Of a stretch of 64,000 nucleotides of DNA, positions 29,322 through 40,540 are shown piece by piece. Every line of letters starts with the position of its first letter. The first letter of the stretch is position 1. The notes under the pieces were generated by a model. It saw nothing but the letters and a program-made list of their open reading frames with translations. It was not told the origin of the DNA and ran no database searches. Source of the stretch: Actinomycetes bacterium (GTDB lineage: Bacteria > Actinomycetota > Acidimicrobiia > Acidimicrobiales > Aldehydirespiratoraceae); contig JAJRXC010000083.1 of NCBI GenBank assembly GCA_024276495.1, positions 314 through 64,313 of the forward strand, written 5' to 3'. Made by a program: the position numbers and the translations under genes.

Positions 29322-30464
29322 ATGGCGGACGCGCTGAAAGACCACTTCGATCGACCGCTCGTCGAGCTCCTGGCGTCGCGGTTCGCAACCGTCGACCGCC
29401 GCTTCGACGCCGCGGCGTTCACCGAGACCGTGGTCGACTCACTTCACCCCCTCGAGTTGAAGGACCGGATCAACCTCATCGCCGACGAGTTGCGGGCCGG
29501 TCTGGCCGCCGACTACCGCGTGGCGCTGGCCGCGGTGGTGGCCGTCGCGCGAACCGACGGGATCGAGGGCTTCACCGCGTGGCCGCTGTGCTCGTTCGTC
29601 GAGCGGCACGGCCTCGCCGATCCGCACGCCTCGCTCGACGCGATGGAGACCCTCACCCGCCGGTTCTCCTGCGAGTTCGCGATCCGACCGTTCCTCGATC
29701 ACCATCTCGACCTGACACGCACCCACCTCGACCGTTGGATCCGCAGCGACGACGAGGCGGTGCGCCGGCTCCCGTCGGAGGGCACCCGGCCCCGTCTGCC
29801 GTGGGGGCCGAAGGTCGACGCGCTCCTCGACGACCCGGAGATCGGGCTCGCTGTGCTGACCGAACTGCGCCACGACCCGTCGGAGACCGTGCGTCGCTCG
29901 GTCGCCAACCATCTCAACGACATCGCCCGCAACCATCCGGAGCGGGTCGTGCAGATCACCCGCGAGTGGCGCGCCGACCCGACGATCGAGCCGTCGATGA
30001 TCCGTCATGCGCTGCGCAGCCTCGTGAAGCGGGGGGACCGTGGCGCCCTCGCCGTGCTCGGGTTCACCACCGAGCCCCGAGTGGCGGTCACCGCGTTCGA
30101 CATCGTCCCTGCCGAGCTGCGACTCTCCGACTCGATAGAGCTCAGGGCCACCCTGATCTCGGAGGCGACGACCGACCAGCATCTCGTGATCGACTTCGTC
30201 GTGCATCATGTCGGCGCCGACGGCACCACCCGCCCGAGGGTCTTCAAGTGGACGACGGTCGAGCTCGCCGCCGGGGCGACGACCACCGTGACGAAGCGAC
30301 GCCGGATCGCGACGGCGTCGACGCGCCGCTACCACGCCGGACGGCATCGGGTCGAGCTGCAGATCGCGGGGGAGATCGCCGCCGAGTGCGCCTTCGAGCT
30401 CCTCGACAGCTCGCCGTCCGCGTCGCCGTCGGCCGCTGCCGGGTCGACTTCGCCGCCGCGGTGA
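29322..30464 (+). CDS. DNA alkylation repair protein (HEAT-like repeat glycosylase, AlkC-like)
   Basis: TRRFSCEFAIRPF, SEGTRPRLPW, VRRSVANHLNDI; C-terminal Ig-like domain. Confidence 0.88.
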   Translation: MADALKDHFDRPLVELLASRFATVDRRFDAAAFTETVVDSLHPLELKDRINLIADELRAGLAADYRVALAAVVAVARTDGIEGFTAWPLCSFVERHGLADPHASLDAMETLTRRFSCEFAIRPFLDHHLDLTRTHLDRWIRSDDEAVRRLPSEGTRPRLPWGPKVDALLDDPEIGLAVLTELRHDPSETVRRSVANHLNDIARNHPERVVQITREWRADPTIEPSMIRHALRSLVKRGDRGALAVLGFTTEPRVAVTAFDIVPAELRLSDSIELRATLISEATTDQHLVIDFVVHHVGADGTTRPRVFKWTTVELAAGATTTVTKRRRIATASTRRYHAGRHRVELQIAGEIAAECAFELLDSSPSASPSAAAGSTSPPR

Positions 30465-30515
30465 GATTTGCGATGGACCCTTGCATCATGGAGGGTTTCG
30501 TGTATTTTCAGACCC

Positions 30516-31379
30516 ATGCGCGCCGCTCGTCGCTCACTTGCCGTCGTCATCATCGGCACCCTCGCCGCCGGGTCCGTCGGCCTGCAGCTCGCGGCCGCCC
30601 AGGAGGAATCGATTCCCGATGAGGTCGCCGCGCTGATCGCCGACCGAACCCTGCTGGTCATCGCCGGAAGTGAGGATTCCATGCGAATCGCGGCCACGCC
30701 GGGTGTCGGCGGTGGGCGGGCGATCACCTGCGGCTGGTTCGGTGTTCGCTCCACGGGGGCCGATCCGTTCACGGTCCGCCAGATCGCCGCCCCGGTGATC
30801 GACACGACCTATCTGCTCTGGTGCTGGTATCCCGACACCGGCGACAGCCTCCCGGGTCATCCGATCGTCACCGACTACACCGGCCCGGGCATACCCGGCG
30901 AGCCGGCCGACGAAGACGACGTCAGCGAGTTCGCCCTGGCATCGCTCGAGTTCGCCACACCCGCCCCGGTTCTGAACCCGGCCGTCGACCTCCTCGTCGG
31001 CATCGACACCTGGCTCGCCGTCACCAGCCGGCTCGACTATCCGGCGATCCACGCGAACGCCGGGCCGGTCTGGGTCTCGGTGTGGCCCCGCTTTCGCGAC
31101 GTGGTCTGGGACCTCGGCAACCGCGACACCCTCCGATGCACCCGGCAGTCCGACGCCGCGACCGTGTGGGATCCCGCCGACCCGCAGCGCTCGAGCGACT
31201 GCACTTATCTCTACGAGTCGATCGGGCGAGCCGACGGCACCCACACGATCTCCGCGACCGTCACCTGGACGATCCTGCGGCGCAGCTTCCGCCGGCCCCG
31301 ATGGTTGCCGTGGCGCGACTTCAGCCTCACCACCACCCGGACGGTTCGCGTCACAGAGCTCCAGGCCGTGATCGAGTGA
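30516..31379 (+). CDS. Secreted Cys-containing hypothetical protein (PKD/Ig-like C-terminus)
   Basis: Signal peptide MRAARRSLAVVII...; LVGIDTWL, WDLGN...C, CTYLYE, ATVTW, VTELQAV. Confidence 0.75.
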   Translation: MRAARRSLAVVIIGTLAAGSVGLQLAAAQEESIPDEVAALIADRTLLVIAGSEDSMRIAATPGVGGGRAITCGWFGVRSTGADPFTVRQIAAPVIDTTYLLWCWYPDTGDSLPGHPIVTDYTGPGIPGEPADEDDVSEFALASLEFATPAPVLNPAVDLLVGIDTWLAVTSRLDYPAIHANAGPVWVSVWPRFRDVVWDLGNRDTLRCTRQSDAATVWDPADPQRSSDCTYLYESIGRADGTHTISATVTWTILRRSFRRPRWLPWRDFSLTTTRTVRVTELQAVIE

Positions 31380-31392
31380 CGACGCGGGTCGG

Positions 31393-32079
31393 TCACGCCG
31401 AGCCGAGCTCGTCGGGATCGATGTCGTCGGGGACGGGCCGGTCGGGACCGCGCCGGAAGTAGACCGGGGTGAGGCCCACGCCCGGCCAGTCGCCGGCATC
31501 TCGGACATCGCCGATCCAGACGTGGGGACGCCACAACGTGGCGGGGTCCTGGCTGTCGAGCACGTCGAGGAGCCCCTCCAACTCGAACCGGTCCCGACGG
31601 GTGAGATCGCGGCTGAAGGCGAGGTGGAGGTCGACCGTTCGCGTCGCCGCGTCGGAGGAGAACGTGGCCGCCCAGAGCTCCGGCCCGAACGCACGACTCA
31701 TCGTCGCCGCGATCGTGACCACCGCCGCGTTCTTGAACTCCGCCGCCGGGGTCATGCCGATCCCGTCGGAGGGAATCCGAGTCGCGAACACGCGCCGGTG
31801 GACCCGACCGGGCCACCCCTCGAGGCCGTGTCCGAGCCACAGATGGGTCGTGTGACGAAGCCATGCCGACGACGAGTCGTGGAGCCGCGAGGAGAACTCC
31901 CCGATGGCGGTGACCGTCTCGCCGACCGGATCCTCGGCACAGGCGAAGAAGACCTCCACGAAGCCGGCCGGTTCGTCGACACGGACCGCCACCGCTCGCA
32001 CCCAGTAGGCCAGGGTGTCGACGAGGGCGTCGGTCACGGCCAGAACCACACGGTCCTCGAAGTCGCGCTCGTCTGTCAT
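31393..32079 (-). CDS. Putative immunity protein with two tandem homologous domains
   Basis: ATGA-coupled immediately downstream of the toxin; internal repeat (HLWLG...WPG...VFATR / HVWIG...WPG...VYFRR). Confidence 0.7.
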   Translation of the reverse strand: MTDERDFEDRVVLAVTDALVDTLAYWVRAVAVRVDEPAGFVEVFFACAEDPVGETVTAIGEFSSRLHDSSSAWLRHTTHLWLGHGLEGWPGRVHRRVFATRIPSDGIGMTPAAEFKNAAVVTIAATMSRAFGPELWAATFSSDAATRTVDLHLAFSRDLTRRDRFELEGLLDVLDSQDPATLWRPHVWIGDVRDAGDWPGVGLTPVYFRRGPDRPVPDDIDPDELGSA

Positions 32080-34127
32080 CGAATCGTTCCCGTCGGCGTC
32101 GCCGGGGTGGCCCGCGGCGACGTGGGGACCACGCTAGGGCGACTCGTGCCCTTGATGATGAACGTGTTCGTGGGCTGAAGAGGGACATCGAGTCGTTGGT
32201 TGACGTTGATCCCCTCGATGTCGTCGAACCGGGCCAGTATGTCGCCGGCCCGGGTGCGACCCAGGATCTCGGCGGAGCCGTCGTGGACGGCGTCGAGGAC
32301 GGCCTGGGCGTCGGCGGGATCGGTGAAGTAGCCGCCGCCAGCCTCGCCCCGCTGCGCCGCGCCTTCGATGTGACGCCCCTGCTTCTGGCGGCTGATGGTC
32401 GTGGAGAGCGCGTCGAGTTGGTCATCGAGGCGCTCGTACCTCGTCATGCGCGAGGCGAGCCACTCCGCGCCGTCGGCGGTCGTCTCCCAGGCACCGGTCA
32501 CCGCGCCGACCACGTTGGCCGCCTCACGCACGGTGCGTTCCCGGTCCTCGGGGACGAGGAGGTCGACACCCCCTGCGGCGATCACGTCGGCGACCCCGCC
32601 GGTGACCCCGGCGGCAGCCGCCGAACGACCGAGCGCCGTCGTCGCGACCGCGTAGGCATCGACGCCGACCACGGCCGTGCGAACCCCCGCGGCGACGAAA
32701 CCACCCTTGACCGCGTTGCCCACGACGTCGTCGAGGAGGTCGTCGCCGGTGGAGAGGTTGACGGCCACGGTGGTGCCCGCCGCGGCGAGCGACCCGACCG
32801 CGACGACCAGCATCGGGCCGGCGGTTCCCCCGGTGGCGACCAGCACGGCGCCACTCCCGACCAGGGCCGCACCCATCGCCAACTCGTCTTTGTGCTCCTG
32901 CCACCAGCTCTCGTCGAACCAGCCGCGCTCGACCATCGTCGTGGCCGCGGCGACGACGGATTCGGGCAGATCCGGGTTGTCGGCGATGAACCGGATCAGG
33001 TCGTTTCGGGACCGGACGCCGTCGACCAACCCCGATGGGTCGTTGGCGATGTCGATCGCGTCGGCGTAGGGGCCGAGTGCCGACCTGATCTGCGACTTCA
33101 ACAGGAACGCCCGCAGGTCTGATTCGGCGATCAGCCCGTCGCCGGGTTCGGTTCGTCCGAACGGCCCATCACCGAGGATGTCGGTGTTCTCGTCGGCCGT
33201 GTCGAGGCGGTTGCGCAACTCCGGCACGGCGAGCAGCGCCTCGGCGGCGACCACCTGCGCGGAGGTGAACCGGCCGCGATTCGCGACGACGTACTCGAGA
33301 TCGGCGACCGACACCCGCCCGTCGGGGCCGCCGCCCGTGGCGTTGTCGAACGCGGCGAAGTCGGCTTCGAGGATGGCGAGCGCGTCCAGCTCGTCGACGC
33401 GCACACCGAAGGAGCGGGCCACGAGCATCGAACCGATCACGTCGAGCAACCCGCTCTCGCGGGCCCGGGCCCGATCGGCCACCGCCGCCACATCGAGCCG
33501 GAATCGTTCGATGAGCGGGACCGCCGCCGTCGCGTCGTCGATGTCGAACCCCCTCGCGACCAGTTCGGCGAGATCGGCATCGAGGCGGTCGATGAGGTCG
33601 CCCGCTGCGACGGGGTCGAGATCGAGGGCGGCGGCCACCGCGGCGATGCGGCTCTCCCGTCGGACCTCCGCATCGACCTCGACCAGCGCCGCCGCGGCAC
33701 CCCGGCCGCGGGCCAGGGCCTGCTCGACACGCACCGCCAGGGTGACATCGCCGCCGACCAACCCGAGCACGAGCCCCCGGCGGCGACGCCGCAACCGGGC
33801 CCTCACGCCGTCTTCCGGGTCTCCCCACCAGTCGTCGAGCGCGTCGGTCAGAGCGTCGATCTCACCGATCTCGCGGCGGATCCCGGCGATGAGGGAGAGA
33901 CGGTTACGCAGATCGGTCGCGAGCCCGTCGAGGCGCCCCCGGGCCGAGTCGAGCGAGGCCAGGGGCGAACGCTGGTCCCGGCCCAGGATTCTGGTGGCGT
34001 CGTCGAGCAGCGCCCCGAGCGCCACCTGGTCGGCCGCGAGGTCGACCGCGGCCGACGCCAGGACCTGGGTCAGCCGTCGGGCCGCCGGGACGTCGAGAAG
34101 GAGGGTGTCGGAACCGGTGTGGGACAT
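32076..34127 (-). CDS. Polymorphic toxin with C-terminal Ntox50-like (toxin type 50) nuclease domain
   Basis: C-terminus RQKQGRHIEG...GGYF...AQAVLDAVHDG...QPTNTFIIKGTSRPSVVP; preceded by a Gly/Ala-rich hydrophobic hairpin; helical N-terminus. Confidence 0.8.
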   Translation of the reverse strand: MSHTGSDTLLLDVPAARRLTQVLASAAVDLAADQVALGALLDDATRILGRDQRSPLASLDSARGRLDGLATDLRNRLSLIAGIRREIGEIDALTDALDDWWGDPEDGVRARLRRRRRGLVLGLVGGDVTLAVRVEQALARGRGAAAALVEVDAEVRRESRIAAVAAALDLDPVAAGDLIDRLDADLAELVARGFDIDDATAAVPLIERFRLDVAAVADRARARESGLLDVIGSMLVARSFGVRVDELDALAILEADFAAFDNATGGGPDGRVSVADLEYVVANRGRFTSAQVVAAEALLAVPELRNRLDTADENTDILGDGPFGRTEPGDGLIAESDLRAFLLKSQIRSALGPYADAIDIANDPSGLVDGVRSRNDLIRFIADNPDLPESVVAAATTMVERGWFDESWWQEHKDELAMGAALVGSGAVLVATGGTAGPMLVVAVGSLAAAGTTVAVNLSTGDDLLDDVVGNAVKGGFVAAGVRTAVVGVDAYAVATTALGRSAAAAGVTGGVADVIAAGGVDLLVPEDRERTVREAANVVGAVTGAWETTADGAEWLASRMTRYERLDDQLDALSTTISRQKQGRHIEGAAQRGEAGGGYFTDPADAQAVLDAVHDGSAEILGRTRAGDILARFDDIEGINVNQRLDVPLQPTNTFIIKGTSRPSVVPTSPRATPATPTGTIR

Positions 34128-34160: not shown

Positions 34161-35445
34161 TCAAGACCTCGTGTCGTGGTCGTGCAGATACTGCTCGAGC
34201 TCGTCGTAGTCACCCGAGCGGTTCGCGTAGATGACGTGATTGCGAGCGGTCTCGAGCCACGGGCCGATCGACGGCTCGACCACGGCCAACGCCTGCTCGA
34301 TCCCTGCGGTGGTGATCGGCTCGACCCGACCCGACTCGAGCGAGGCGGCCAGCGCCGCCTCCGTGGCCTCCTCGACGATGAGTGCGAGATCGGCCCCCGA
34401 GTAGCCATCGGTCGCCGCGACCACCGCGCCGAGATCGACGTCGTCCGTCGGCCTTCCCCGCAGGTGGTGATCGAGGATCGACCGGCGGCCGACCGGATCC
34501 GGCGGCAACACGAGAAGACGACGATCGAAGCGGCCCGGTCGCAGGAGGGCCTCGTCGACATCCCACGGGTGGTTCGTGGCCGCCAACACGAAGACCCCGT
34601 CGTTGTCGGCACCGACCCCGTCGAGCTCGGACAGGAGCTGGTTGACCACTCCCCGCAGCGAGGCGCCCGACACCCGCAGGTGGCTGCGCTTCTGGCCGAG
34701 CGCGTCGATCTCGTCGAAGAACAAGACGCACGGGGCGTTTCGTCGGGCGGTGTCGAAGATCGCCGCGAGGTTCCGCTCGCTCGACCCGATCCACATGTCG
34801 AGCACGTCGGCGAGTCCGACGTTGTAGAAGTTGGCGCCCATCTCGCCGGCGGTGGCCCGGGCGAGAAAGGTCTTCCCGCACCCCGGGGACCCCACAACAT
34901 GAGGCCGCCGGAGGCCACCTTGCCGAACGCGGCCGCCATCTCCGGGTTGCGATCGGCGCCAGAAACGATCGGTCGAGTTGGCGTTTCACCGCATCGAGGC
35001 CGCCGACGTCGTCGAGGGTGATGCCCGCGGCCCCCAGGTGACCGAACTCGACCTCCTCGATCGGCGCCGACTGCGCCCACTCGTCGACGAGCTCGTCGAC
35101 CGTGTCGGGGAAGTCGTCGACGCCGTAGCCGTCGGGCGTCACCGCCCGCCGGGTGCCCGCCGCGTCGGATCCGGTCTCGTCGCCGGGCTCGACGCGGTCC
35201 CGTTCGAACTGCTGTCGCATCGGGCCGGCCGCGGGATCGCCCAACGCCTCGAGCAACTCCACCGAGACTTCCACGATCGCGGGATCGGCGTCGTCGATGT
35301 CGAAACCGGCCCGGAGATGGGGCACCGCGTCCCGCGCCCGATCCGCGTCGATCAACAGTCGAATGAGATGCACCCGCAGGGCGGTATCGTCGGGCGTCGT
35401 CGCCAGCGCCCGCTCCAGCGAGAAGATCAGATCGTCGGCACTCAT
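34161..35445 (-). pseudogene. AAA+ ATPase with TPR-like N-terminus, broken by two 1-bp deletions (possibly sequence errors)
   Basis: DVGGL...LAPI / RNPEMAAAFGK...GLMLWGP / PGCGKT, LFFDEID, AATNHPW, RPGRFDR lie across three frames; shifts near 34951 and 34886. Confidence 0.8.
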
Positions 35446-35572
35446 GGCTCCGGGTGATCCTCGTCGCCACGCTGGAGACCGGTCACCGGACGCGATGGTA
35501 GAACCCGCGAGACTCACGGACGTTCACCATCCGCCGATCGGGTGGAGAGCCCCGACGACCCCGGCGAGACCG

Positions 35573-36388
35573 ATGAGCGATTCCACCGCAGCGGCGGCAA
35601 AGGCCATGAACCTGCTCGCGGTCGGCCGCGTCGACGAAGCGGTGACCCTGATCGGCGAGGCAATCGCCGCCGACCCCGCGAACGCCGACCTCCATGTCGC
35701 GATGGCCCGGGCCCACCATGCCGGCGGAGACGCCGACGAGACCCTCGCCGCGGCCACACGGGCCCTGGCCCTCGACGTCGACGTCGCGGCCCTTCATCTC
35801 GCCGCCGTCGCCCATCGGACGCGCCGCGAGTGGGCCGAGTCGCTCGAGCTGCTCTCCCGCGCGATCGACCTCACCCCGGACGCGGCCAACCTGCACGTCG
35901 GAACCGCGTTGACCCTGCTCGGCCCGTGGATCGCGCCCGCCGACACACCCGCCCACGAGGCGGAGCGGGTCGACGACGGGCGCGTCGCCGAGGCGATCCA
36001 CGCGGCCGACCGGGCCGCCACGCTCGAACCCGAGCTCGCCCTCGTTCCCTACGTCCGCGGATTCGTGGCCCTGGCCCGCGACGACCTGCCCGCCGCCGCG
36101 AGCCATCTCGAGACGGCGCTTCGACTCGACCCCGAATGGTCGACCGCCCATCTGGTGCTCGGAAAGATCCGTGCCCGTCAGGGCATGGGCCGGCTGGCGA
36201 GCCGTCATCTCGCCGCCGCCGGTCGGCTGGAACCCTCCGACACCGGCGCCCTCCATCTCCTGCGCCGTCTCACCACTCCCGGCGGCCGTCGGGCCCGACG
36301 CAAGGGCCGCCTCGACCTCGACCGGGTGGTGCCCGACGCCCGGCGCATCCTCCAGGCGGATCTGCGCATCGGCGGCGGGGGGCGCTGA
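35573..36388 (+). CDS. Tetratricopeptide repeat protein
   Basis: Repeated A(I/L)xxDP helical units. Confidence 0.8.
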   Translation: MSDSTAAAAKAMNLLAVGRVDEAVTLIGEAIAADPANADLHVAMARAHHAGGDADETLAAATRALALDVDVAALHLAAVAHRTRREWAESLELLSRAIDLTPDAANLHVGTALTLLGPWIAPADTPAHEAERVDDGRVAEAIHAADRAATLEPELALVPYVRGFVALARDDLPAAASHLETALRLDPEWSTAHLVLGKIRARQGMGRLASRHLAAAGRLEPSDTGALHLLRRLTTPGGRRARRKGRLDLDRVVPDARRILQADLRIGGGGR

Positions 36389-37878
36389 TGGAGCTCGCCG
36401 ATCTCCTGGGCGTCGTCTTGTTCGGATCCGTCCTGATCCTGCCCATCTGGGCCACCGGACGCCTCTTTCGTTCGGTCCTGCGCCGGCGACGCCGCCTGCT
36501 CGACTCGCTGGCCGAACGGGGCGACGTCCACACCTTCGACATGCCACTGACCATCGGCATCATCCTCTTCGGCGCCGGCGCGGTGTTCGCCGGCATCGCA
36601 CTGGTCCCGGGCCTGATCTGGCTCACCGACGGCGACACCGACGCCCGCCGGGTTTTCCTCGTCAGCTGGCCGGTCTTCGGAGTCTTCGCGCTCGCCGGTC
36701 GACTCGCGGCCCGACCCGGCCTGCGGATCTGGATTAGCGAACCCGCCGGGGTGACCGTGCGTCGAGTGGGCGTCTCGCATCGCGACCGCGGATCTCGACA
36801 CGACCGCCATGTCGCGCACGAGACGATCGTCTCGTTTCACGAGCGGCGCTCGCCGACCGGGGCGGTCGAGATCCGCAGCACCGAGACCCGGCTCGTGGCG
36901 CCGATGCAACTCAGCGGCTTCGACGAGCTCCTCAGCGCCCTCCGGCGGGCGGCTCCTCGTGCCCCCTACACCTCGTGGCGAGACGGCCGTCGCGACCATC
37001 CGACACCGGGCCACCCCGACGAGGAGAACCGGACGAGCTTCTCGATCTCGGCCACCGGCACCCGCGTGACGATCGGCGTCCTCGCTGCCCTTCTGGTCAC
37101 ATTGCTCGTGTGGCCGTGGTTTCTGGTGACCGGCGAGAGCCCGACACGCGACTCGTTCATCTTCGTCGGCATCGGTCTCCTGTTGTGGGCGATGATCGCC
37201 GGTCTGGTCGCGGCCGAGTCGTTCCCCCGCCACCAACCCTCGGTGTTGGAGCTCCGCCCGCAGACCCTGGCGTGGCGAACCCTCCGAGGCGGCCGGCACG
37301 AACGAGACCTGCGCGAGGTCGTGACCGTCACGATCGAGACCGACATCATCTACGTTCGGGGGTTTCCCGGCTACCGCCATCCGTTGCGCATCACGTTCGT
37401 CGACGGACCACCGCTCGAGCTCAACGACGCTCGGGCCCGGCAGATGCGGGCGAGCACCCGTCGCATCGCCGACACGGTTCGCCGTCACGTGCACGACCTC
37501 ACCCGCCGCCACGCCGCCGACCGGGCTCGGGCCGACGCCCTCGCGGTCGAGGCGGCCCGGGCCCGCGCCGACGCCACGATCGGCGGCGACGCCCGCGCCG
37601 TGGATCTCCTCCGTCGAGCCGTGGCCGTCCACCCCCACCCGGTGCGACTGACCCGGCTCCGGCACATCGGGGACCTCCACCGTCGACTCGGCGAACACGA
37701 CCGGGCGGTGTCGCTCTACCGGGCCCACCTCGACTACCGGCCCGACGACGCCCGCGCCTGGGAGGGACTGGCCGCGAGCTTCACGGCGCTGAACCGGGCC
37801 GATCTCGCCGGCGAGGCGACCGAGACCGCCGAACGAATCCTGCTGCGCACCGGACCCGGCGACGGCGTCAACGAATGA
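36388..37878 (+). CDS. Membrane protein with two TM-pair + beta-domain units and C-terminal TPRs
   Basis: TGATG coupling; five hydrophobic segments; C-terminal YRPDDARAWEGLA. Confidence 0.75.
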   Translation: MELADLLGVVLFGSVLILPIWATGRLFRSVLRRRRRLLDSLAERGDVHTFDMPLTIGIILFGAGAVFAGIALVPGLIWLTDGDTDARRVFLVSWPVFGVFALAGRLAARPGLRIWISEPAGVTVRRVGVSHRDRGSRHDRHVAHETIVSFHERRSPTGAVEIRSTETRLVAPMQLSGFDELLSALRRAAPRAPYTSWRDGRRDHPTPGHPDEENRTSFSISATGTRVTIGVLAALLVTLLVWPWFLVTGESPTRDSFIFVGIGLLLWAMIAGLVAAESFPRHQPSVLELRPQTLAWRTLRGGRHERDLREVVTVTIETDIIYVRGFPGYRHPLRITFVDGPPLELNDARARQMRASTRRIADTVRRHVHDLTRRHAADRARADALAVEAARARADATIGGDARAVDLLRRAVAVHPHPVRLTRLRHIGDLHRRLGEHDRAVSLYRAHLDYRPDDARAWEGLAASFTALNRADLAGEATETAERILLRTGPGDGVNE

Positions 37879-40540
37879 GCCGGATCCGATCGAGCTCGGC
37901 GCGGAGGTGACCACTGGCGTCGAGCTCCTGCAGCGGCTGCTCCCGACCTCGATGAAAGGCCCGGAGCTCGGGGCCGTGACCGACCCGCTCGGCGAGCCCC
38001 TCGGCCAACCCGATGGTGAACGGGGTGCGGGGGGTGGCCGCCTGGCGCAACAGGTTCCAGCCGTGTTCGTCCTCGCCCCGGTTGATGGCGAGGGCGGCGA
38101 GTCCGACCAGGGCATCGTTCGCCATCCGGTTCAGCCGGCCCCGCAGCGCGTCGTAGCCGAACCCGACGATGAGATCGGCGGCTTCGGTCGAACGACCGAG
38201 ATCGATCAGGGCGACCGCCTTGACGATCCGCGACGAGTCCCAGATCGACAAGGACCAGTCGCGGCCGTCGACCATGTCGAGGGCCGCGGTCGGGTCGCCG
38301 GTGAGGATCTGGGCGGATGCCAGCGACAACCCGGCCATGACCACCTGGTTGGTGACGCCGTCGTGGGAGTCGAAGAGCCCATAGGCCCGCGAGAACCCGA
38401 CGATCGCCTCGTCGAGGCGGTTCTCGTAGAGGGCGAGACACGCTTCGGCCCAGACCGCCGGCGTGAGGTACGGGCCACTGAGCCGATGCTCGGTGACGAC
38501 CTCCCGAGCGTGGCGAACCAACTCCATCGCCCGGTCCGGGTGTTGCCGGCAGCTGAGGAACGCCATGAGCCCGGCGGCCTGGGCCTCGGCCATCGGCGTC
38601 GTGTCCGGCTCGTTGATCATCTCGTCGAGCACCCGGTGCACCTCGGCGAAGTCGTCGAGTTGCATGGCGAGCACGGCCCGGATGTAGCGGATCCAGTCGT
38701 GGCATTCCCCGGCGGGAAGCGATGCGTCGATCTGCTCGACCCAGCGGCGCCCCTCGACCGCCGGGATCCGGGTGTCCCACAGGCCGTGGCAGCCGAACGC
38801 GATGTGGGCGGCGACCTCGGCCCCCGACTCCCCGCTCGCCGGATCGTCGCCCCGTTCGATCGCCCATTCGAGCGCGCTGGCCAAGTTGGCCCAGTCGTGG
38901 CGCAGGCCCTCGGCCCGGCGAAGGTCGGCCGCCAGCAGGAAGTCCTCGGTGACGACCTTCGAACGGAACCACTCGAGGTGGGCGTCGCGGGCTGCGGTCA
39001 CGTCCTCGCTGCGGGCCAGCTGGTCGCTCGCGTAGATCCGGACGGTCTCCAGCAGGCGGTAGCGGGTTGTGGGATTGTCGGGCCCTTCGTCGACCGACAA
39101 CAGCGACTTCGCGACGAGCGATCCGAGGAGGTCCATGGCGTCGTAGTCGTCGCAGCCGGCCACCGCGACCGCAGCCGGAAGGTCGAACGAGCCGACGAAG
39201 ACGCCGCATCGTCGGAAGAACCTCTGTTCCTCGCGGTCGAGCAGGTCATAGGACCAGTCGAGGGTGGCCTGGAGCGTTCGCCGCTTCTGACGCCCCCGCC
39301 CCCCGGACAACAGCCGGAAGCGGTCCTCCATCCGGTCGAGGATCTCCGCCGGAGTCAGCACGGAGATCCGGGCGGCGGCGAGCTCGATCGCGAGCGGCAT
39401 GCCGTCGAGTTGGAGGCAGATCTCCGCGACCAGCCGACGGGTGGGGTCGGCAGGGTCGTTCTCGCAGGTGAAGGTCGGATTCGCGGCTCGGGCCCGTTCG
39501 ACGAACAGCTGGACGGCGGGCGCGTCCCCCTCGTGACCGAGCGACCCCACCACGATGACCTGCTCCCCGGGGACCTCCAGACGCTGGCGGGTGGTGGCGA
39601 GGATCGCGGTGGAGCTGCTCCGGGCCAGGAGCTGCTCGGCGAATGCCGCGCAGTCGTCGAGGATGTGCTCGCAGTTGTCGAGAACGACCAGGACGTCGCG
39701 TCCCGAGAGGTGATCGATGACCTGTTCGAGCGCGTCACCGGGTGAGCCGACGAGCTCGAGGCGAACGGCGGACGCCACCGCGGCCGCCAGCTCGGATCCG
39801 TCGGACACCGACGACAAGTCGACGAAGTAGCAGCCATCGGTGCGGCCGGGGAGCTCCTGATAGGCGATCTCGACAGCGAGGCGCGTCTTTCCGCATCCGC
39901 CGGTTCCGATGAGGGTCACCATCGGCGCCGATTCGAGCAGGTGACGGGCCCGGACGACCTCGTCGTGCCGACCGATCAGCGGCGACCCGGGCAGCGGCAG
40001 CGACGAGAGGGACGGATCGACGACCCGCAACGGTCGAAACGACGAGAGTCCGACCTGGAAGATGTCGACCGGTTCGGGGACGTCGCGGAGCCGATGCCGA
40101 CCCAGCGCGAGCGTTTCGACGTCGACGACCGAACGGACCGCGTCGGACATCAGGATCTGGCCGCCGGCGGCGACCGCCTCGATTCGAGCCGCGGTGTTGG
40201 GAACCGGGCCGAAGTAGTCGCCGTCGCGTTGCGTGGCCCGTCCCCGATGCAACCCCATGCGAACCCGCAGCGCCGGACCGTCGCCCCAATCGGTCACCGC
40301 CAACTCGGCCTGCGCGGCCATCGCCGCGGCGACCGCCGACTTCGCGTCCTCGAACGCCCCCCGGAAGTGATCACCGGCCCAGCCGAAGACCAGGCCGCCG
40401 CGACCCTCCATCGCCGCCTTGACGATGTGGTCGTGCGTCTCGAGACTCCTGGCCGTGGCCTCGGCATCGGCCGCCCACAACCTCGTCGACCCTTCGACGT
40501 CGGTGAAGAGAAACGTGATGATGCCGGCCGGGGTGTCCAC
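37868..40540 (-). CDS. Adenylate/guanylate cyclase + NB-ARC/STAND ATPase + TPR-like protein
   Basis: FLFTDVEGST, RMGLHRG; GTGGCGKTRL, VLDNCEH, LDGMPLAIELAAAR, WSYDLL. Confidence 0.92.
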   Translation of the reverse strand: MDTPAGIITFLFTDVEGSTRLWAADAEATARSLETHDHIVKAAMEGRGGLVFGWAGDHFRGAFEDAKSAVAAAMAAQAELAVTDWGDGPALRVRMGLHRGRATQRDGDYFGPVPNTAARIEAVAAGGQILMSDAVRSVVDVETLALGRHRLRDVPEPVDIFQVGLSSFRPLRVVDPSLSSLPLPGSPLIGRHDEVVRARHLLESAPMVTLIGTGGCGKTRLAVEIAYQELPGRTDGCYFVDLSSVSDGSELAAAVASAVRLELVGSPGDALEQVIDHLSGRDVLVVLDNCEHILDDCAAFAEQLLARSSSTAILATTRQRLEVPGEQVIVVGSLGHEGDAPAVQLFVERARAANPTFTCENDPADPTRRLVAEICLQLDGMPLAIELAAARISVLTPAEILDRMEDRFRLLSGGRGRQKRRTLQATLDWSYDLLDREEQRFFRRCGVFVGSFDLPAAVAVAGCDDYDAMDLLGSLVAKSLLSVDEGPDNPTTRYRLLETVRIYASDQLARSEDVTAARDAHLEWFRSKVVTEDFLLAADLRRAEGLRHDWANLASALEWAIERGDDPASGESGAEVAAHIAFGCHGLWDTRIPAVEGRRWVEQIDASLPAGECHDWIRYIRAVLAMQLDDFAEVHRVLDEMINEPDTTPMAEAQAAGLMAFLSCRQHPDRAMELVRHAREVVTEHRLSGPYLTPAVWAEACLALYENRLDEAIVGFSRAYGLFDSHDGVTNQVVMAGLSLASAQILTGDPTAALDMVDGRDWSLSIWDSSRIVKAVALIDLGRSTEAADLIVGFGYDALRGRLNRMANDALVGLAALAINRGEDEHGWNLLRQAATPRTPFTIGLAEGLAERVGHGPELRAFHRGREQPLQELDASGHLRAELDRIRLIR

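What the first reader, a model, noticed from the sequence alone, without database searches (positions are those of the whole stretch)
32076..34127. Polymorphic toxin with unusual trunk: WXG100-like helices, three EF-hand-like motifs, TM hairpin, Ntox50-like tip
Seen: no signal peptide; ~85-aa amphipathic N-terminus; three related motifs (FDNATGGGPDGRVSVADL, LDTA...GDGLIAESDL, IDIANDPSGLVDGVRSRNDL); a WWQEHK + Gly/Ala hydrophobic region; and a KQGRH-containing tip whose DNA looks less GC-biased. Known: Ntox50 is a predicted RNase tip of polymorphic toxins. Inference: an interbacterial toxin of a poorly studied lineage, perhaps type VII-exported, with a Ca2+-responsive trunk. No secretion genes are in this window.
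Basis: partly seen in the sequence, partly recalled or inferred. Interest (0 to 1): 0.75.

Follow-up and report, generated by a model that had tools for sequence, protein, structure and literature searches.

The report
Modular RNase toxin with translocon-like trunk
This gene of an uncultured Acidimicrobiales bacterium encodes a modular toxin: an RNase-like tip with its own antidote gene downstream, carried on a membrane-inserting trunk that seems distantly related to the pore-forming proteins plant bacteria use to inject effectors.

Summary

**Tip (residues ~571-671).** It folds like the solved Ntox50-type RNase toxins MafB2-CT (Z 12.3) and YxiD-CT (Z 10.7). The window protein scores below Pfam's Ntox50 cut-off. 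It keeps only one of their three catalytic histidines (H586); the other two positions are K659 and S665.

**Modularity is shown both ways.**
- The same tip ends RHS, PT-HINT, WXG100_2 and eCIS-type proteins.
- The same trunk carries RES, TNT, DUF6883 and unnamed tips.

**Immunity.** A family-less gene follows the tip in 7 of 8 tip-bearing loci, overlapping the toxin's stop where read. It is missing in 6 of 6 tip-less loci and in the one locus where K659 and S665 are mutated.

**Trunk core.** Three half-EF-hand loops plus a transmembrane hairpin match no Pfam family. They show moderate, control-tested similarity to HrpF/NolX type III translocon proteins.

**Not supported or open.**
- WXG100-likeness: tested, no support.
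- Type VII export: open.
- Ca2+ binding: untested.
- A nucleotidyl-cyclase gene upstream in most related loci is unexplained.

The parts
32076..34127 (-). Toxin gene, 683 aa (P0001), including the stop codon
   Evidence: ORF list and translation. There are 21 homologues besides itself at 47-78% identity. It is single-copy in its own genome.
33834..34091 (-). N-terminal helical hairpin, residues 13-98, a variable head module of unknown export role
   Evidence: AF2 helices H13-48 and H54-98, pLDDT 80-90. Only generic hairpin matches, Z about 9. Not similar to local WXG100 proteins. In diverged trunk proteins the shared part starts near profile position 87.
33339..33809 (-). Helical domain, residues 107-263, part of the conserved trunk
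   Evidence: AF2 model helices with pLDDT 71-93 by blocks up to about residue 250, lower towards residue 263. Conserved in alignments A1 and A3.
33297..33350 (-). EF-hand-like loop 1, residues 260-277 (FDNATGGGPDGRVSVADL)
   Evidence: Coordinates. D269, S273, D276 and L277 are conserved. It aligns to the NolX family repeat.
33114..33206 (-). RLDTA helix plus EF-hand-like loop 2, residues 308-338
   Evidence: Coordinates. D309, F323, G324 and D330 are invariant in the 24-sequence alignment. This is the best-matching stretch to NolX, 'FGGGHTVDSGNVSKEDF'.
32997..33056 (-). EF-hand-like loop 3, residues 358-377
   Evidence: Coordinates. D369 and D376 are invariant in A3.
32883..32924 (-). GWFDESWWQEHKDE motif, residues 402-415, at the entry to the membrane segment
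   Evidence: Most conserved stretch of the family; it served as the search pattern. Coordinates.
32754..32882 (-). Predicted transmembrane hairpin, residues 416-458
   Evidence: Hydropathy peaks at 425-449. AF2 helices H413-431 and H438-460. G434 and N457 are invariant.
32418..32753 (-). Gly/Ala-rich amphipathic helices and the trunk-tip junction, residues 459-570 (ends with the ...DLLxPExxE...VH motif)
   Evidence: AF2 helices H465-494, H498-517 and H527-547 at low confidence. Trunk matches in proteins with other tips end at profile position about 545-565.
32115..32417 (-). Tip: Ntox50/MafB2-CT-like RNase-fold domain, residues 571-671 (H586, K659, T661, S665)
   Evidence: Pfam Ntox50 at 15 bits, E 0.043, below the 22.2-bit cut-off. 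The tip profile hits MafB2 toxin 8hhj_B at E 2.6e-7. Tip model pLDDT 90.6. Foldseek gives 8hhj_B E 5.1e-5 and 9v8i_B E 7.4e-3. VIA gives Z 12.3 and 10.7.
31393..32079 (-). Probable immunity gene, 228 aa (P0002), two tandem copies of a domain of about 115 aa; its start overlaps the toxin's stop (ATGA)
   Evidence: overlap. Single-domain relatives lie downstream in other tip-bearing loci. No Pfam or PADLOC family.
34161..35517 (-). Upstream TPR + AAA ATPase gene, 34 bp from the toxin's start; membership in the system is doubtful
   Evidence: Pfam AAA 1.4e-37 and TPR_19. It recurs in only 1 of 15 related loci, L006. In the window it reads in three frames, but a public contig carries an extra base at both break points.
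37868..40540 (-). Nucleotidyl cyclase + NB-ARC/STAND ATPase gene, 890 aa, the conserved upstream neighbour in related loci
   Evidence: Pfam Guanylate_cyc 6.2e-8, NB-ARC 3.5e-7, AAA_22. It lies directly upstream on the same strand in 9 of 11 related loci that have upstream DNA.

Best explanation
The gene encodes a leaderless, three-part antibacterial toxin of the polymorphic-toxin kind, followed by its immunity gene.

(1) A variable N-terminal helical head, residues 1 to about 90, presumably carries the export signal. The route is unknown; type VII is the only candidate seen in the genome.

(2) A conserved trunk, residues about 90-560, has a core of three DG-x-[VI]-[SA]-x-x-D-[LF] loops (half EF-hand loops), a GWFDxxWWxEHKDE motif, a transmembrane hairpin and Gly/Ala-rich helices. 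This core looks like a distant relative of the HrpF/NolX/PopF translocon proteins. I infer that after export it inserts into the target cell's membrane and carries the C-terminal domain across.

(3) The tip, residues about 571-671, has the fold of the RNase toxins MafB2-CT and YxiD-CT. It has a different catalytic set: H586 kept, K659 and S665 in place of the two other histidines. I infer that it cuts RNA, possibly tRNA, in the target cytoplasm.

The 228-aa product of the overlapping downstream gene protects the producer.

Shown here: the modular architecture, the tip fold, and the tip-immunity co-occurrence. Inferred: export, membrane translocation, RNase activity and Ca2+ binding.
For: **Family.**
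- There are 21 homologues besides the window protein, mostly about 670-690 aa and matching over 98% of the query (some shorter or partial), in Acidimicrobiales MAGs and metagenomes.

**Modularity** (profile search over 1.84 billion representatives: 576 proteins at E <= 1e-3).
- Trunk-only matches (profile about 6-555) occur in proteins of 550-1550 aa with other C-termini.
- Tip-only matches (profile about 572-672) always lie at the extreme C-terminus of proteins of 120-3352 aa.
- Of the 31 trunk proteins scanned, 3 carry a C-terminal tip that Pfam names: DUF6883 (9e-21), RES (1e-17) and TNT (3.7e-14). Several others share an unnamed tip, by my reading of the C-termini printed.
- Of 36 tip proteins scanned, 22 match Ntox50 at E <= 0.01 and 12 reach the 22.2-bit cut-off. 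Their N-terminal parts are RHS repeats (9), PT-HINT (4), WXG100_2 (1), eCIS_core (1) and others.

**Tip fold.**
- The profile of 33 tips hits MafB2 toxin 8hhj_B at E 2.6e-7.
- The tip model has pLDDT 90.6 and pTM 0.83.
- Foldseek gives 8hhj_B E 5.1e-5, TM 0.65/0.79, rmsd 2.1, and YxiD 9v8i_B E 7.4e-3.
- VIA gives Z 12.3 (100 of 101 residues aligned) and Z 10.7. The next hit is Z 4.8, another RNase toxin.
- MafB2-CT is a ribonuclease (PMC9970974, abstract read). YxiD-CT is an Ntox50 tRNase (PMC12700104, abstract and section 23 read).

**Immunity.**
- A homologous small ORF lies directly downstream in 7 of 8 tip-bearing loci with downstream DNA. It overlaps the toxin's stop in the three loci read (window, L004, L005).
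- It is absent in 6 of 6 tip-less loci.
- The one miss, L029, is the family member with E at K659 and R at S665.

**Trunk versus HrpF/NolX.**
- Pfam NolX or T3SS_HrpK1 give weak sub-threshold hits in the EF-like region of 6 of 32 diverse trunk proteins; the best is 7.9e-6, 26.1 bits against a cut-off of 30.9.
- hhalign of the trunk core against a 6-sequence HrpF/NolX alignment gives probability 77.7%, P 1.9e-5, score 48.2. It spans 248 co-linear columns through loops 1-2 and the hydrophobic region.
- Controls: reversed P 0.38; 20 column shuffles best P 0.16 (score <= 19.8); unrelated alignments 0.36 and 0.72.
- A trunk-core HMM run against 1151 six-frame ORFs puts HrpF/NolX ORFs in all top 5 places (best E 1.2e-4), with the sixth member at rank 7.
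- HrpF forms pores in bilayers and NopX is toxic in E. coli, according to passages of the review PMC3973906.
Against: **Export is not shown.**
- There is no signal peptide and no WXG100, LXG or T7SS_signal match.
- The head against 9 local WXG100 proteins gives P 0.042, while shuffles reach 0.059.
- EccB and EccD were not found in the 97.4%-complete genome.
- No EccC or WXG100 homologue lies within up to 10 kb of the gene in 15 related loci.

**The window protein and its 16 aligned relatives all fall below Pfam's Ntox50 cut-off.**
- The window protein scores 15 bits. Only 5 of 17 match at E <= 1, best 0.0093.
- Two of the three histidines essential in MafB2-CT and YxiD-CT are K and S here, so RNase chemistry is inferred, not shown.

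**The locus behaves unlike a typical polymorphic-toxin locus.**
- It is single-copy, with no orphan tips in the genome.
- It is syntenic across relatives.
- In my samples it was found in 3 of 401 genomes of the class and 2 of 401 of the phylum, own genome included; only 2-3 first-look candidates per genome were scored.

**Trunk-only genes are common**, so the trunk may have a function of its own.

**The HrpF/NolX link is not reciprocal.**
- A small NolX HMM finds no trunk protein significantly; the best is P0047 at E 0.12.
- The prefiltered genome search with A3 found the NolX genes in 0 of 5 replicons.
- No trunk protein reaches the Pfam cut-offs.

**The middle of the full-length model is poorly predicted**, with pLDDT 30-66 over residues about 310-600.
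Confidence: 0.6

Rival explanations
1. The protein is a cell-autonomous, membrane-anchored effector of a defence or addiction module, not a secreted weapon. It stays in the producer's membrane with both ends in the cytoplasm, held by the two-helix hairpin. The downstream protein acts as an antitoxin. The conserved upstream nucleotidyl cyclase (with a STAND NTPase in the long form) senses a trigger such as phage infection. It then switches on the pore-forming trunk, the RNase, or both.
For: - A cyclase-domain gene lies directly upstream on the same strand in 9 of 11 related loci with upstream DNA. It persists while the toxin gene diverges to 37% identity and while the cyclase changes from 890 aa (cyclase + NB-ARC) to about 200 aa.
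- There is no export signal and no nearby secretion gene.
- The locus is single-copy, syntenic and vertically kept.
- The short cyclase gives a weak PycC (Pycsar cyclase) match, E 1.6e-5.
- Trunk-only versions are retained.
Against: - PADLOC has nothing for the toxin or the immunity protein, and the PycC match covers only part of the profile, as expected for any class III cyclase.
- No cyclic-nucleotide-binding domain was found in the trunk.
- The adjacency may be plain synteny among close relatives, and L032 and L033 look like one sequence filed twice. L006 and L029 lack the cyclase. In the window itself three genes separate the two.
- The tip occurs elsewhere on RHS, PT-HINT, WXG100_2 and eCIS proteins, which are secreted-toxin contexts.
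- The tips swapped onto this trunk (TNT, RES, RNase) with cognate downstream genes are the hallmark of polymorphic toxins.
Confidence: 0.2
2. The trunk itself is the main weapon. It would be an exported, membrane-permeabilising (pore-forming) toxin of the HrpF/NolX kind, and the RNase tip an optional add-on that some lineages have lost.
For: - Trunk-only homologues of 554-627 aa with all trunk motifs intact are frequent among the best matches: P0024-P0029, L006, L014, L032-L034.
- Tip-less lineages seem to keep a remnant of the tip's first helices, suggesting secondary loss.
- The trunk has a hydrophobic hairpin and Gly/Ala-rich helices.
- HrpF forms pores, and NopX is toxic when overexpressed in E. 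coli (PMC3973906 passages).
Against: - A pore-forming toxin would itself need an immunity gene. None homologous to P0002 is found beside the tip-less genes, 0 of 6. I did not examine those flanks for other small membrane proteins.
- One tip-less gene (G167) has an in-frame TGA.
- Immunity tracks the tip, not the trunk.
Confidence: 0.12
3. It is not a toxin at all. It would be a conserved lineage-specific membrane protein with an RNA-binding or RNA-processing C-terminal domain that has lost nuclease activity, given that two catalytic histidines are missing.
For: - Two of three catalytic histidines are replaced.
- The gene is vertically inherited at a fixed locus.
Against: - The K/S variant of the tip is the dominant form in the roughly 100 tip sequences inspected, which sit at the C-terminus of classical toxin scaffolds, so it is evidently a working toxin module.
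- K659 and S665 are conserved in 16 of 17 family members. The single exception has lost the downstream gene.
- The start of the downstream ORF overlaps the toxin's stop, which suggests translational coupling, typical of toxin-immunity pairs.
Confidence: 0.05

Closest known systems
Ntox50 (PF15542) RNase toxin tips: MafB2-CT of Neisseria meningitidis B16B6 (PDB 8HHJ) and YxiD-CT of Bacillus subtilis 6633 (PDB 9V8I)
   Same: - Same fold: Z 12.3 and 10.7, covering nearly the whole domain.
- Same position at the extreme C-terminus of modular toxins.
- The first catalytic histidine sits in a Q-x-[KR]-H motif.
- A downstream immunity gene is present.
- According to Zhang et al. 2012 (PMC3482391, passages read), the family is found on T2SS (MafB-N), T6SS, T7SS (WXG, LXG) and MuF scaffolds.
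   Different: - MafB2 His402 and His409 (YxiD H521 and H528, the 'HxVP' signature) are K659 and S665 here ('IKGT..PSVVP').
- The window protein scores 15 bits against a cut-off of 22.2.
- The immunity protein has no detectable relation to any Pfam family.
- No enzymatic data exist for this K/S clade.
HrpF/NolX(NopX)/PopF and HrpK1 type III translocon proteins (PF05819, PF16937)
   Same: - Co-linear arrangement: a helix 'AAxxLLxxPxLxxxLdxA', then a loop 'FG....DGxISxxDFxxF' (repeated), then C-terminal Gly/Ala-rich hydrophobic segments.
- Profile-profile P 1.9e-5 with clean controls.
- The trunk HMM ranks HrpF/NolX ORFs first among 1151 ORFs.
- They are leaderless secreted proteins that enter a target membrane.
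   Different: - Those proteins belong to Gram-negative plant-associated bacteria, are exported by type III systems and carry no toxin tip.
- Here the host is a monoderm actinobacterium with no T3SS context.
- No member reaches a Pfam cut-off, and the reverse searches found nothing significant.
- Homology is probable, not proven.
Type VII-exported modular toxins of Gram-positives (LXG toxins of Bacillota; CpnT/TNT of mycobacteria)
   Same: - Leaderless, with a helical N-terminus, a C-terminal enzymatic tip and downstream immunity.
- A TNT tip occurs on this same trunk in P0062.
- A protein-language-model search placed the trunk nearest LXG clusters (0.87) and a T7SS_signal cluster (0.86). These scores are below the tool's 0.9 mark, so they are a lead only.
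   Different: - No LXG, WXG100 or T7SS_signal profile match, and no similarity to local WXG100 proteins.
- No partner genes or T7SS genes nearby.
- The genome shows only a WXG100 + FHA-FtsK/SpoIIIE pair.
- That CpnT has an N-terminal channel domain is recalled, not checked here.
EF-hand / dockerin-type Ca2+ loops
   Same: The three loops fit positions 5 (D), 6 (G), 8 (I/V), 9 (S), 12 (D) and 13 (L/F) of the canonical 12-residue loop. The canonical pattern is recalled; the residues come. Weak EF-hand_7 or EF-hand_14 hits appear in 3 of 31 diverged relatives, best 2e-4 at 22 bits against a cut-off of 23.7.
   Different: Positions 1 and 3 are not acidic, and loops 1 and 3 are longer with acidic residues further upstream. 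The window protein has no Pfam EF-hand hit. Metal binding is untested.

Membership tests
Ntox50 (PF15542) | Match to the Pfam model at or above the gathering score (22.2 bits) | tested here: not met
   P0001 scores 15 bits, E 0.043, covering profile 1-82 of 92. Of the 17 family members, 0 reach the cut-off and 5 match at E <= 1. Close tip relatives do reach it: 12 of 36.
Ntox50 (PF15542) | Fold of the solved members (MafB2-CT, YxiD-CT; BECR / RNase A-like) | tested here: met
   Tip model pLDDT 90.6. Foldseek gives 8hhj_B E 5.1e-5 and 9v8i_B E 7.4e-3. VIA gives Z 12.3 and 10.7, with the next hit at 4.8. The tip profile hits 8hhj_B at E 2.6e-7.
Ntox50 (PF15542) | N-terminal catalytic histidine (MafB2 H335, YxiD H447, preceded by K/R) | tested here: met
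   R585-H586 is invariant in 17 of 17 members and H is invariant in the 33-tip alignment. It aligns to MafB2 'GKH'.
Ntox50 (PF15542) | Second and third catalytic histidines, including the C-terminal 'HxVP' (MafB2 H402 and H409; YxiD H521 and H528) | tested here: not met
   The HMMER alignment puts K659 opposite H402 and S665 opposite H409: 'IKGT..PSVVP' against 'IHsGK..VHIVP'. The signature is taken from PMC3482391 (passages), PMC9970974 (abstract) and PMC12700104 (section 23).
Ntox50 (PF15542) | Ribonuclease activity | not testable with these tools
   This needs expression and an RNA cleavage assay.
Polymorphic toxin system (sense of Zhang et al. 2012) | The same trunk carries different C-terminal toxin domains | tested here: met
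   Trunk matches end at profile position about 545-565 and the proteins go on with DUF6883, RES, TNT and unnamed tips.
Polymorphic toxin system (sense of Zhang et al. 2012) | The same tip occurs on unrelated trunks or trafficking domains | tested here: met
   RHS (9), PT-HINT (4), WXG100_2 (1), eCIS_core (1), CBM_4_9 (1) and SpvB (2, below cut-off) among the 36 proteins scanned.
Polymorphic toxin system (sense of Zhang et al. 2012) | A cognate immunity gene immediately downstream that varies with the tip | tested here: met
   Present in 7 of 8 tip-bearing loci and 0 of 6 tip-less loci. The miss is the K659E/S665R variant. Overlapping start and stop. Physical binding is not shown.
Polymorphic toxin system (sense of Zhang et al. 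2012) | A recognisable N-terminal secretion or trafficking domain | tested here: inconclusive
   No Pfam or NCBIfam domain in residues 1-560. The head varies among trunk proteins.
Polymorphic toxin system (sense of Zhang et al. 2012) | Orphan tip/immunity cassettes nearby or elsewhere in the genome | tested here: not met
   A profile search of the own genome finds the gene itself only. Nothing follows P0002 but a convergent gene.
WXG100 / LXG type VII substrates | Profile match to WXG100, WXG100_2, LXG or T7SS_signal | tested here: not met
   No match for P0001 or the 17 family members at E <= 1, for the 31 diverse trunk proteins at E <= 0.01, or for the 15 (14 of them among the 31) at E <= 1. 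hhalign of residues 1-110 against 9 local WXG100 proteins gives P 0.042, score 15.7, while shuffles reach 14.7.
WXG100 / LXG type VII substrates | A helix-turn-helix hairpin of about 100 residues | tested here: met
   H13-48 and H54-98. EsxGH 3q4h_B gives Z 8.4, tied with dozens of unrelated hairpins, so this is not discriminating.
WXG100 / LXG type VII substrates | Type VII machinery in the genome and near the gene | tested here: inconclusive
   A WXG100 gene (34.8 bits) and an FHA-FtsK/SpoIIIE protein of 1416 aa (EccC_a 342 bits, below the cut-off of 509) lie on contig C103 among metabolic genes. EccB and EccD were not found. No such gene lies in the flanks of 15 related loci.
HrpF/NolX (PF05819) and HrpK1 (PF16937) translocators | Match to the Pfam model at or above the cut-off | tested here: not met
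   Best scores are NolX 18.2 bits (cut-off 26.1) and HrpK1 26.1 bits (cut-off 30.9). Six of 32 trunk proteins have weak hits; P0001 has none.
HrpF/NolX (PF05819) and HrpK1 (PF16937) translocators | Significant profile-level similarity over the repeat and hydrophobic core | tested here: inconclusive
   For: hhalign probability 77.7%, P 1.9e-5, with controls >= 0.16; the trunk HMM ranks the family first among 1151 ORFs, best E 1.2e-4. Against: the reverse NolX HMM is not significant, and the genome search with A3 found the genes in 0 of 5 replicons.
HrpF/NolX (PF05819) and HrpK1 (PF16937) translocators | Encoded with, and secreted by, a type III secretion system | tested here: not met
   No T3SS gene is seen in the window region or the related loci examined. 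The genome was not searched for T3SS families. The hosts are Acidimicrobiales.
EF-hand | Canonical 12-residue loop with ligands at positions 1, 3, 5, 7, 9 and 12 | tested here: inconclusive
   Positions 5, 6, 8, 9 and 12 fit in all three loops; positions 1 and 3 do not. P0001 has no Pfam EF-hand hit, and 3 of 31 relatives have weak hits. Ca2+ binding cannot be tested here.

The most novel reading that the evidence does not exclude
The trunk core (three half-EF-hand loops, a GWFD..WW.EHKDE motif, a transmembrane hairpin and Gly/Ala helices) is a true homologue of the HrpF/NolX/PopF type III translocon family. In Gram-positive bacteria it works as a built-in, self-inserting translocation module. 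It would carry whichever enzymatic tip is fused behind it (RNase, TNT or RES NADases) across the target cell's membrane. That would give the first candidate answer to how leaderless Gram-positive polymorphic toxins reach the target cytoplasm. It would also show that the plant-pathogen translocon descends from, or shares an ancestor with, a toxin delivery domain. A bolder variant is that the conserved upstream nucleotidyl cyclase gates this module with a cyclic nucleotide.
Probability: 0.35. Interest if true: 0.85.

Novelty: new variant of a known kind. Interest (0 to 1): 0.66.

Why it matters
Three points would matter if they hold.

1. **Entry into the target cell.** As far as I recall, how toxins of monoderm bacteria cross the target cell's membrane is largely unknown; I did not search the literature on this. 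A conserved trunk with a membrane hairpin directly ahead of interchangeable cytoplasm-acting tips is a concrete, testable candidate for the entry device.

2. **Origin of the HrpF/NolX translocon.** As far as I recall, this family has no solved structure and no known relatives outside proteobacterial T3SS. I did not check this beyond the three literature searches listed in the full report and the absence of a match to the trunk in the PDB searches. A related module in Actinomycetota would give it an evolutionary context and new sequences for structure prediction.

3. **A second active-site form of Ntox50.** The tip defines a large, tightly conserved clade: most of the 415 representative clusters at E <= 1e-10 are tip matches. 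This clade has replaced two of the three catalytic histidines of the characterised members by Lys and Ser. The family therefore has at least two active-site solutions, and Pfam's model under-detects this one.

The natural K659E/S665R variant that has lost its immunity gene is a ready-made pointer to the functional residues.

Tried and rejected
- **Complex prediction** of the tip (residues 565-683 of A1) with P0002 (A5) gave no verdict, score 0.00 in both runs, and controls were not run. It counts neither for nor against binding.
- **The search for homologous proteins with the diverse alignment A3** returned only the close family (21 proteins), with no names and no Pfam.
- **The listing of cluster members** for 10 diverse trunk proteins returned no names or taxa.
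- **tblastn of P0042 against plasmids** found only an Acaryochloris 'peptidoglycan-binding protein', E 2e-3, residues 270-405, and no NolX.
- **Three 50-kb stretches of pNGR234a** were read in search of nolX before the family search located it.
- **BLASTP of P0001 against NolX** was not significant, best E 1.8.
- **BLASTP of the two halves of P0002** against each other was not significant, E 0.17. The tandem-duplication reading rests on the four-way alignment A4 (19-27% identity) and on tblastn of P0002's second half to single-domain genes (2e-9 to 2e-4).
- **The profile search of PDB with the full-length alignment** gave only chance phycocyanin hits and MafB2 at E 1.2.
- **Foldseek with the full-length model** gave nothing for the trunk. 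VIA-wide on it gave only generic helical hairpins for residues 1-81. The trunk core was not folded alone, so nothing can be said about its fold.
- **The ESM Atlas** gave LXG at 0.87 and a T7SS_signal cluster at 0.86, both below the 0.9 mark.
- **The three Alteromonas loci** from the genome scan are chance matches to 'GWFDESW' in an unrelated 286-aa protein; one of them was read.
- **PADLOC** had nothing for the toxin or immunity protein. The AAA ATPase hits IetA/TRIP13 models and the cyclases hit PycC weakly, as generic family similarity.
- **No RNA holder was listed** among public runs, so nothing can be said on expression. The two DNA runs laid hold only parts of the stretch as short contigs.
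- **EccA-like reading of the upstream TPR-AAA ATPase** was rejected. Its best NCBIfam matches are FtsH, CDC48 and PAN, with EccA at E 0.004 only, and it recurs in 1 of 15 related loci.

Full report
**1. The observation**

The ORF at 32076..34127 on the minus strand encodes 683 residues. A second ORF, 31393..32079 (228 aa, P0002), starts at an ATG that overlaps the toxin's TGA.

A word-indexed search of 5.8 billion proteins found 21 homologues besides the protein itself. Most are 670-690 aa long and cover 98-100% of the query at 47-78% identity. Those with names come from Acidimicrobiales MAGs.

In the 17-sequence alignment A1 the acidic and glycine positions of the three loops, GWFD..WW.EHKDE, RQ.Q.RH, GGYF, DAQ.VLDAV and KGT..PSVVP are invariant or nearly so. 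So this is a real, conserved protein, and the motifs are not chance.

The tip's lower GC is real but slight: 0.683 against 0.727, and GC3 0.854 against 0.893. That is inside the host genes' range, so it gives no sign of recent acquisition.

**2. The tip**

Pfam gives only a sub-threshold Ntox50 match: 15 bits, E 0.043, cut-off 22.2, covering profile positions 1-82 of 92. Five of the 17 family members match at E <= 1 and none reaches the cut-off.

A profile search with A1 against 1.84 billion cluster representatives found 576 proteins at E <= 1e-3 and 415 at E <= 1e-10. Most of the 150 listed match only profile positions about 572-672. That match always lies at their extreme C-terminus, in proteins of 120 to 3352 aa.

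I scanned 36 of these with Pfam.
- 22 match Ntox50 at E <= 0.01, and 12 reach the cut-off.
- Their upstream parts are RHS repeats (9), PT-HINT (4), WXG100_2 (1), eCIS_core (1), CBM_4_9 (1) and SpvB (2, below cut-off).

A profile of 33 tips (A2) hits the MafB2 toxin chain 8hhj_B at E 2.6e-7.

The tip folded with A2 gives pLDDT 90.6 and pTM 0.83. Its matches are:

| Target | Foldseek | VIA |
|---|---|---|
| 8hhj_B (MafB2-CT) | E 5.1e-5, TM 0.65/0.79, rmsd 2.1 | Z 12.3, 100 of 101 residues aligned |
| 9v8i_B (YxiD-CT) | E 7.4e-3 | Z 10.7 |

The next VIA matches are other RNase toxins at Z <= 4.8: CdiA-CT of Y. kristensenii, MqsR, RNase A family, BrnT, RelE and colicin D.

MafB2-CT is a ribonuclease whose His335, His402 and His409 are needed for toxicity (PMC9970974, abstract). 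YxiD-CT is assigned to Ntox50 and is a metal-dependent tRNase needing H447, H521, H528, K446 and K524 (PMC12700104, abstract and section 23). Zhang et al. 2012 list Ntox50 as a predicted BECR-fold RNase with 'H, S, K, T, H, K, HxVP' (PMC3482391, passages).

The HMMER alignment shows that only the first histidine is kept here (R585-H586). MafB2's 'IHsGK..VHIVP' corresponds to 'IIKGT..PSVVP', so K659 stands for H402 and S665 for H409.

This K/S form is not a local oddity. It is the consensus of the roughly 100 tip sequences I aligned. I therefore file the tip as a distinct clade of the Ntox50 fold group with another catalytic set, and not as a plain Ntox50 member. RNase activity is inferred.

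**3. The trunk is shared with other tips**

In one search about 40 proteins match profile positions about 6-560, or from about 87 on, and then continue differently. I scanned 31 of them with Pfam. Their tips include DUF6883 (P0032, 9e-21), RES (P0055, 1e-17) and TNT (P0062, 3.7e-14). By my reading of the C-termini printed, at least five (P0037, P0042, P0043, P0045, P0046) share an unnamed tip.

The first ~86 residues are replaced by other helical heads of 100-750 residues in many of them. The trunk ends with a conserved '..D(L/I)LxPExxE..VH' stretch.

**4. Immunity**

P0002 has six homologues of 221-230 aa. No Pfam, NCBIfam or PADLOC family matches.

In the other branch of the family the downstream gene is a single domain of 134-145 aa. 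Both halves of P0002 align to it (A4, 19-27% identity). The second half is found by tblastn at 2e-9 to 2e-4. BLASTP of the two halves against each other is not significant, so the tandem duplication is probable, not proven.

Counts over the window and the 15 related loci:
- Of 8 tip-bearing loci with downstream DNA, 7 have the homologous ORF directly after the toxin: window, L004, L005, L027, L028, L030 and L031.
- Of 6 tip-less loci, none has it: L006, L014, L015, L032, L033 and L034. L032 and L033 look like one sequence filed twice.
- The one tip-bearing locus without it, L029, carries the family's only changes at the putative catalytic positions, K659 to E and S665 to R. There an ABC-F gene on the other strand follows the toxin gene's stop by 34 bp.

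That is the pattern expected if the tip is toxic, the downstream protein neutralises it, and K659 and S665 matter.

**5. What the trunk core is**

No Pfam or NCBIfam family covers residues 1-560.

The full-length model has mean pLDDT 65:
- Residues 10-250 are confident helices.
- The loop region and the membrane region are weak, with pLDDT 30-66.

Hydropathy gives a two-helix hairpin at about residues 416-458.

The three loops fit the second half of an EF-hand loop: D at position 5, G at 6, I/V at 8, S at 9, D at 12. Positions 1 and 3 do not fit. The canonical pattern is recalled from memory. Weak EF-hand hits occur in 3 of 31 relatives.

Six of 32 diverged trunk proteins give weak hits to Pfam NolX or T3SS_HrpK1 in this same region. 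The best is P0042, E 7.9e-6, 26.1 bits against 30.9.

To test this I located NopX/NolX on pNGR234a and fetched five homologues from rhizobial and Ralstonia replicons.

Results for the link:
- hhalign of the 24-sequence trunk alignment against the 6-sequence family gives probability 61.9%, E 7.6e-5, over 103 columns.
- With the trunk core alone (residues 225-560) it gives probability 77.7%, P 1.9e-5, score 48.2. The alignment spans 248 co-linear columns running from loop 1 through loop 2 into the hydrophobic segments.
- Controls: reversed family P 0.38; 20 column shuffles best P 0.16; unrelated alignments A2 and A5 give 0.36 and 0.72.
- A HMMER profile of the trunk core run with --max on 1151 six-frame ORFs from 13 loci puts HrpF/NolX ORFs in the first five places (E 1.2e-4 to 0.099), with the sixth member in seventh place.

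Results against the link:
- The reverse search with the small NolX HMM finds no trunk protein significantly; the best is P0047 at E 0.12.
- The prefiltered genome search with A3 found the genes in 0 of 5 replicons.
- BLASTP of P0001 against NolX is at noise level.
- No trunk protein reaches a Pfam cut-off.

I rate true homology at about two in three.

HrpF forms pores in bilayers, translocators carry transmembrane domains, and NopX is toxic on overexpression in E. coli, according to the review PMC3973906 (passages).

I found no paper linking these families to polymorphic toxins:
- 'NolX' + 'polymorphic toxin': 0 papers.
- 'HrpF' + 'polymorphic toxin': 1 paper, a Xanthomonas secretion review seen only in the listing.
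- 'HrpF' + 'Actinobacteria' + 'type VII secretion' + 'translocon': 0 papers.

**6. Export**

The genome (97.4% complete, 111 contigs) holds one WXG100 gene (34.8 bits) directly before an FHA-FtsK/SpoIIIE protein of 1416 aa. That protein matches EccC_a at 342 bits, below the cut-off of 509. The pair sits on contig C103 between metabolic genes.

Evidence bearing on type VII export:
- EccB and EccD were not found.
- WXG100 matches occur in 14 of 61 sampled genomes of the order, 8 over the cut-off. This tally includes one genome flagged unpublished, G793, on which no other claim rests.
- The toxin's head shows no profile similarity to 9 of these local WXG100 proteins: P 0.042, while shuffles reach 0.059.
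- No EccC or WXG100 homologue lies in the flanks of the 15 related loci.

Type VII export is therefore possible but unsupported.

**7. Genomic setting**

The gene is single-copy in its genome.

With A1 it was found in 3 of 401 sampled genomes of the class, all in one family. With A3 it was found in 2 of 401 of the phylum, the second being a weak match to the membrane region only. Both counts include the own genome. Only 2-3 first-look candidates per genome were scored, so weak matches may have been missed.

The locus is syntenic:
- A DNA_alkylation-like gene (window 29322-30464) recurs downstream in 3 loci (L027, L030, L031).
- A class III nucleotidyl-cyclase gene lies directly upstream on the same strand in 9 of 11 loci with upstream DNA. 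The misses are L006 and L029.

The cyclase comes in two forms (the size split across loci rests on the tblastn ranges):

| Locus type | Cyclase form |
|---|---|
| Tip-bearing genes | about 890 aa: cyclase + NB-ARC/AAA_22 |
| Tip-less genes | about 200 aa: cyclase only |

In the window three genes are inserted between the cyclase and the toxin:
- a TPR protein on the plus strand,
- a membrane-TPR protein on the plus strand,
- a TPR-AAA ATPase on the minus strand, 34 bp upstream of the toxin.

Tip-less lineages seem to retain a remnant of the tip's first helices, which suggests secondary loss of the tip.

The constant cyclase neighbour is unexplained and feeds the main rival: a cell-autonomous, cyclase-triggered effector. 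PADLOC gives that rival no direct support.

**8. Verdict**

This is a real toxin-immunity pair of the polymorphic kind. It has a new, family-less trunk and a variant Ntox50-fold tip.

Its interpretation is right on the tip family and on polymorphism. It is unsupported on WXG100-likeness and type VII export, and untested on Ca2+.

The most interesting lead is the trunk's likely kinship with HrpF/NolX translocators. If it holds, the trunk is a candidate built-in membrane-translocation device.

Noticed in passing
window 34161-35517 (-), break points near 34884 and 34950: The TPR + AAA ATPase gene upstream of the toxin reads in three frames, because of two apparent one-base gaps about 65 bases apart around the Walker A region. 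One contig of public run X1 (depth 3.9, 1 other letter) carries an extra G at exactly both places. The gene is therefore probably intact in nature, and the window has consensus errors or a strain difference.
   Followed up: yes
window 37868-40540 (-); L004 3241-5928; L014 9165-9788; L027, L030-L034: A nucleotidyl-cyclase-domain gene is the constant upstream neighbour of the trunk gene, in 9 of 11 related loci. The 890-aa cyclase + NB-ARC form goes with tip-bearing genes and the ~200-aa cyclase-only form with tip-less genes. Its role (regulator, signal generator or mere synteny) is open.
   Followed up: partly
window 35153-37878 (+): Two plus-strand genes, a TPR protein and a membrane protein with C-terminal TPRs, form with the AAA ATPase an insertion of about 3.7 kb between cyclase and toxin. 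Where the gap was read it is short: 9 bp in L004 by ORF coordinates, and about 64-88 bases between the tblastn matches in L027, L030 and L031.
   Followed up: partly
L029 1077-3092 (about P0017): This natural variant of the toxin has E for K659 and R for S665. It has no immunity gene downstream and no cyclase upstream; an ECF-sigma-like gene and an ABC-F gene flank it.
   Followed up: partly
L014 7219-9102 (G271), L006 5968-7755, L015 (G167), L032-L034: These are tip-less trunk genes of 595-627 aa with all trunk motifs. Their C-termini resemble the first helices of the tip ('..DARSVFDAV..'). The G167 copy has one in-frame TGA.
   Followed up: partly
own genome contig C103: 46294-46500 and 46395-50645 (L010 8250-8546 and 8396-12646): A minimal type VII-like pair, a WXG100 gene followed by an FHA-domain FtsK/SpoIIIE ATPase of 1416 aa. 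It is flanked by luciferase-like, enoyl-CoA hydratase and peptidase S9 genes, with no EccB or EccD in the genome.
   Followed up: partly
window 30468-31379 (+): A 303-aa ORF convergent on the immunity gene, ending 14 bp from it. Its N-terminus is hydrophobic and looks like a signal peptide. It has no Pfam or NCBIfam family, and no homologue was found in the related loci by tblastn.
   Followed up: partly
NZ_CP064921.1 11102-11527 (Acaryochloris marina S15 plasmid): A gene annotated 'peptidoglycan-binding protein' matches the EF-like loop region of trunk protein P0042 (residues 270-405, 26% identity, E 2e-3). It is possibly another carrier of the loop module.
   Followed up: no
P0037, P0042, P0043, P0045, P0046 C-termini: Five diverged trunk proteins share an unnamed tip of about 230-270 aa, '..EPLVKIAP.G.EVS..SPYWTT..EL....G.DL.D.FGLP......Y......AP.....F.S.IAPT.E..GL....GG..Q..VP.R..F'. 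It has no Pfam match at E <= 0.01. This may be an undescribed toxin domain.
   Followed up: no
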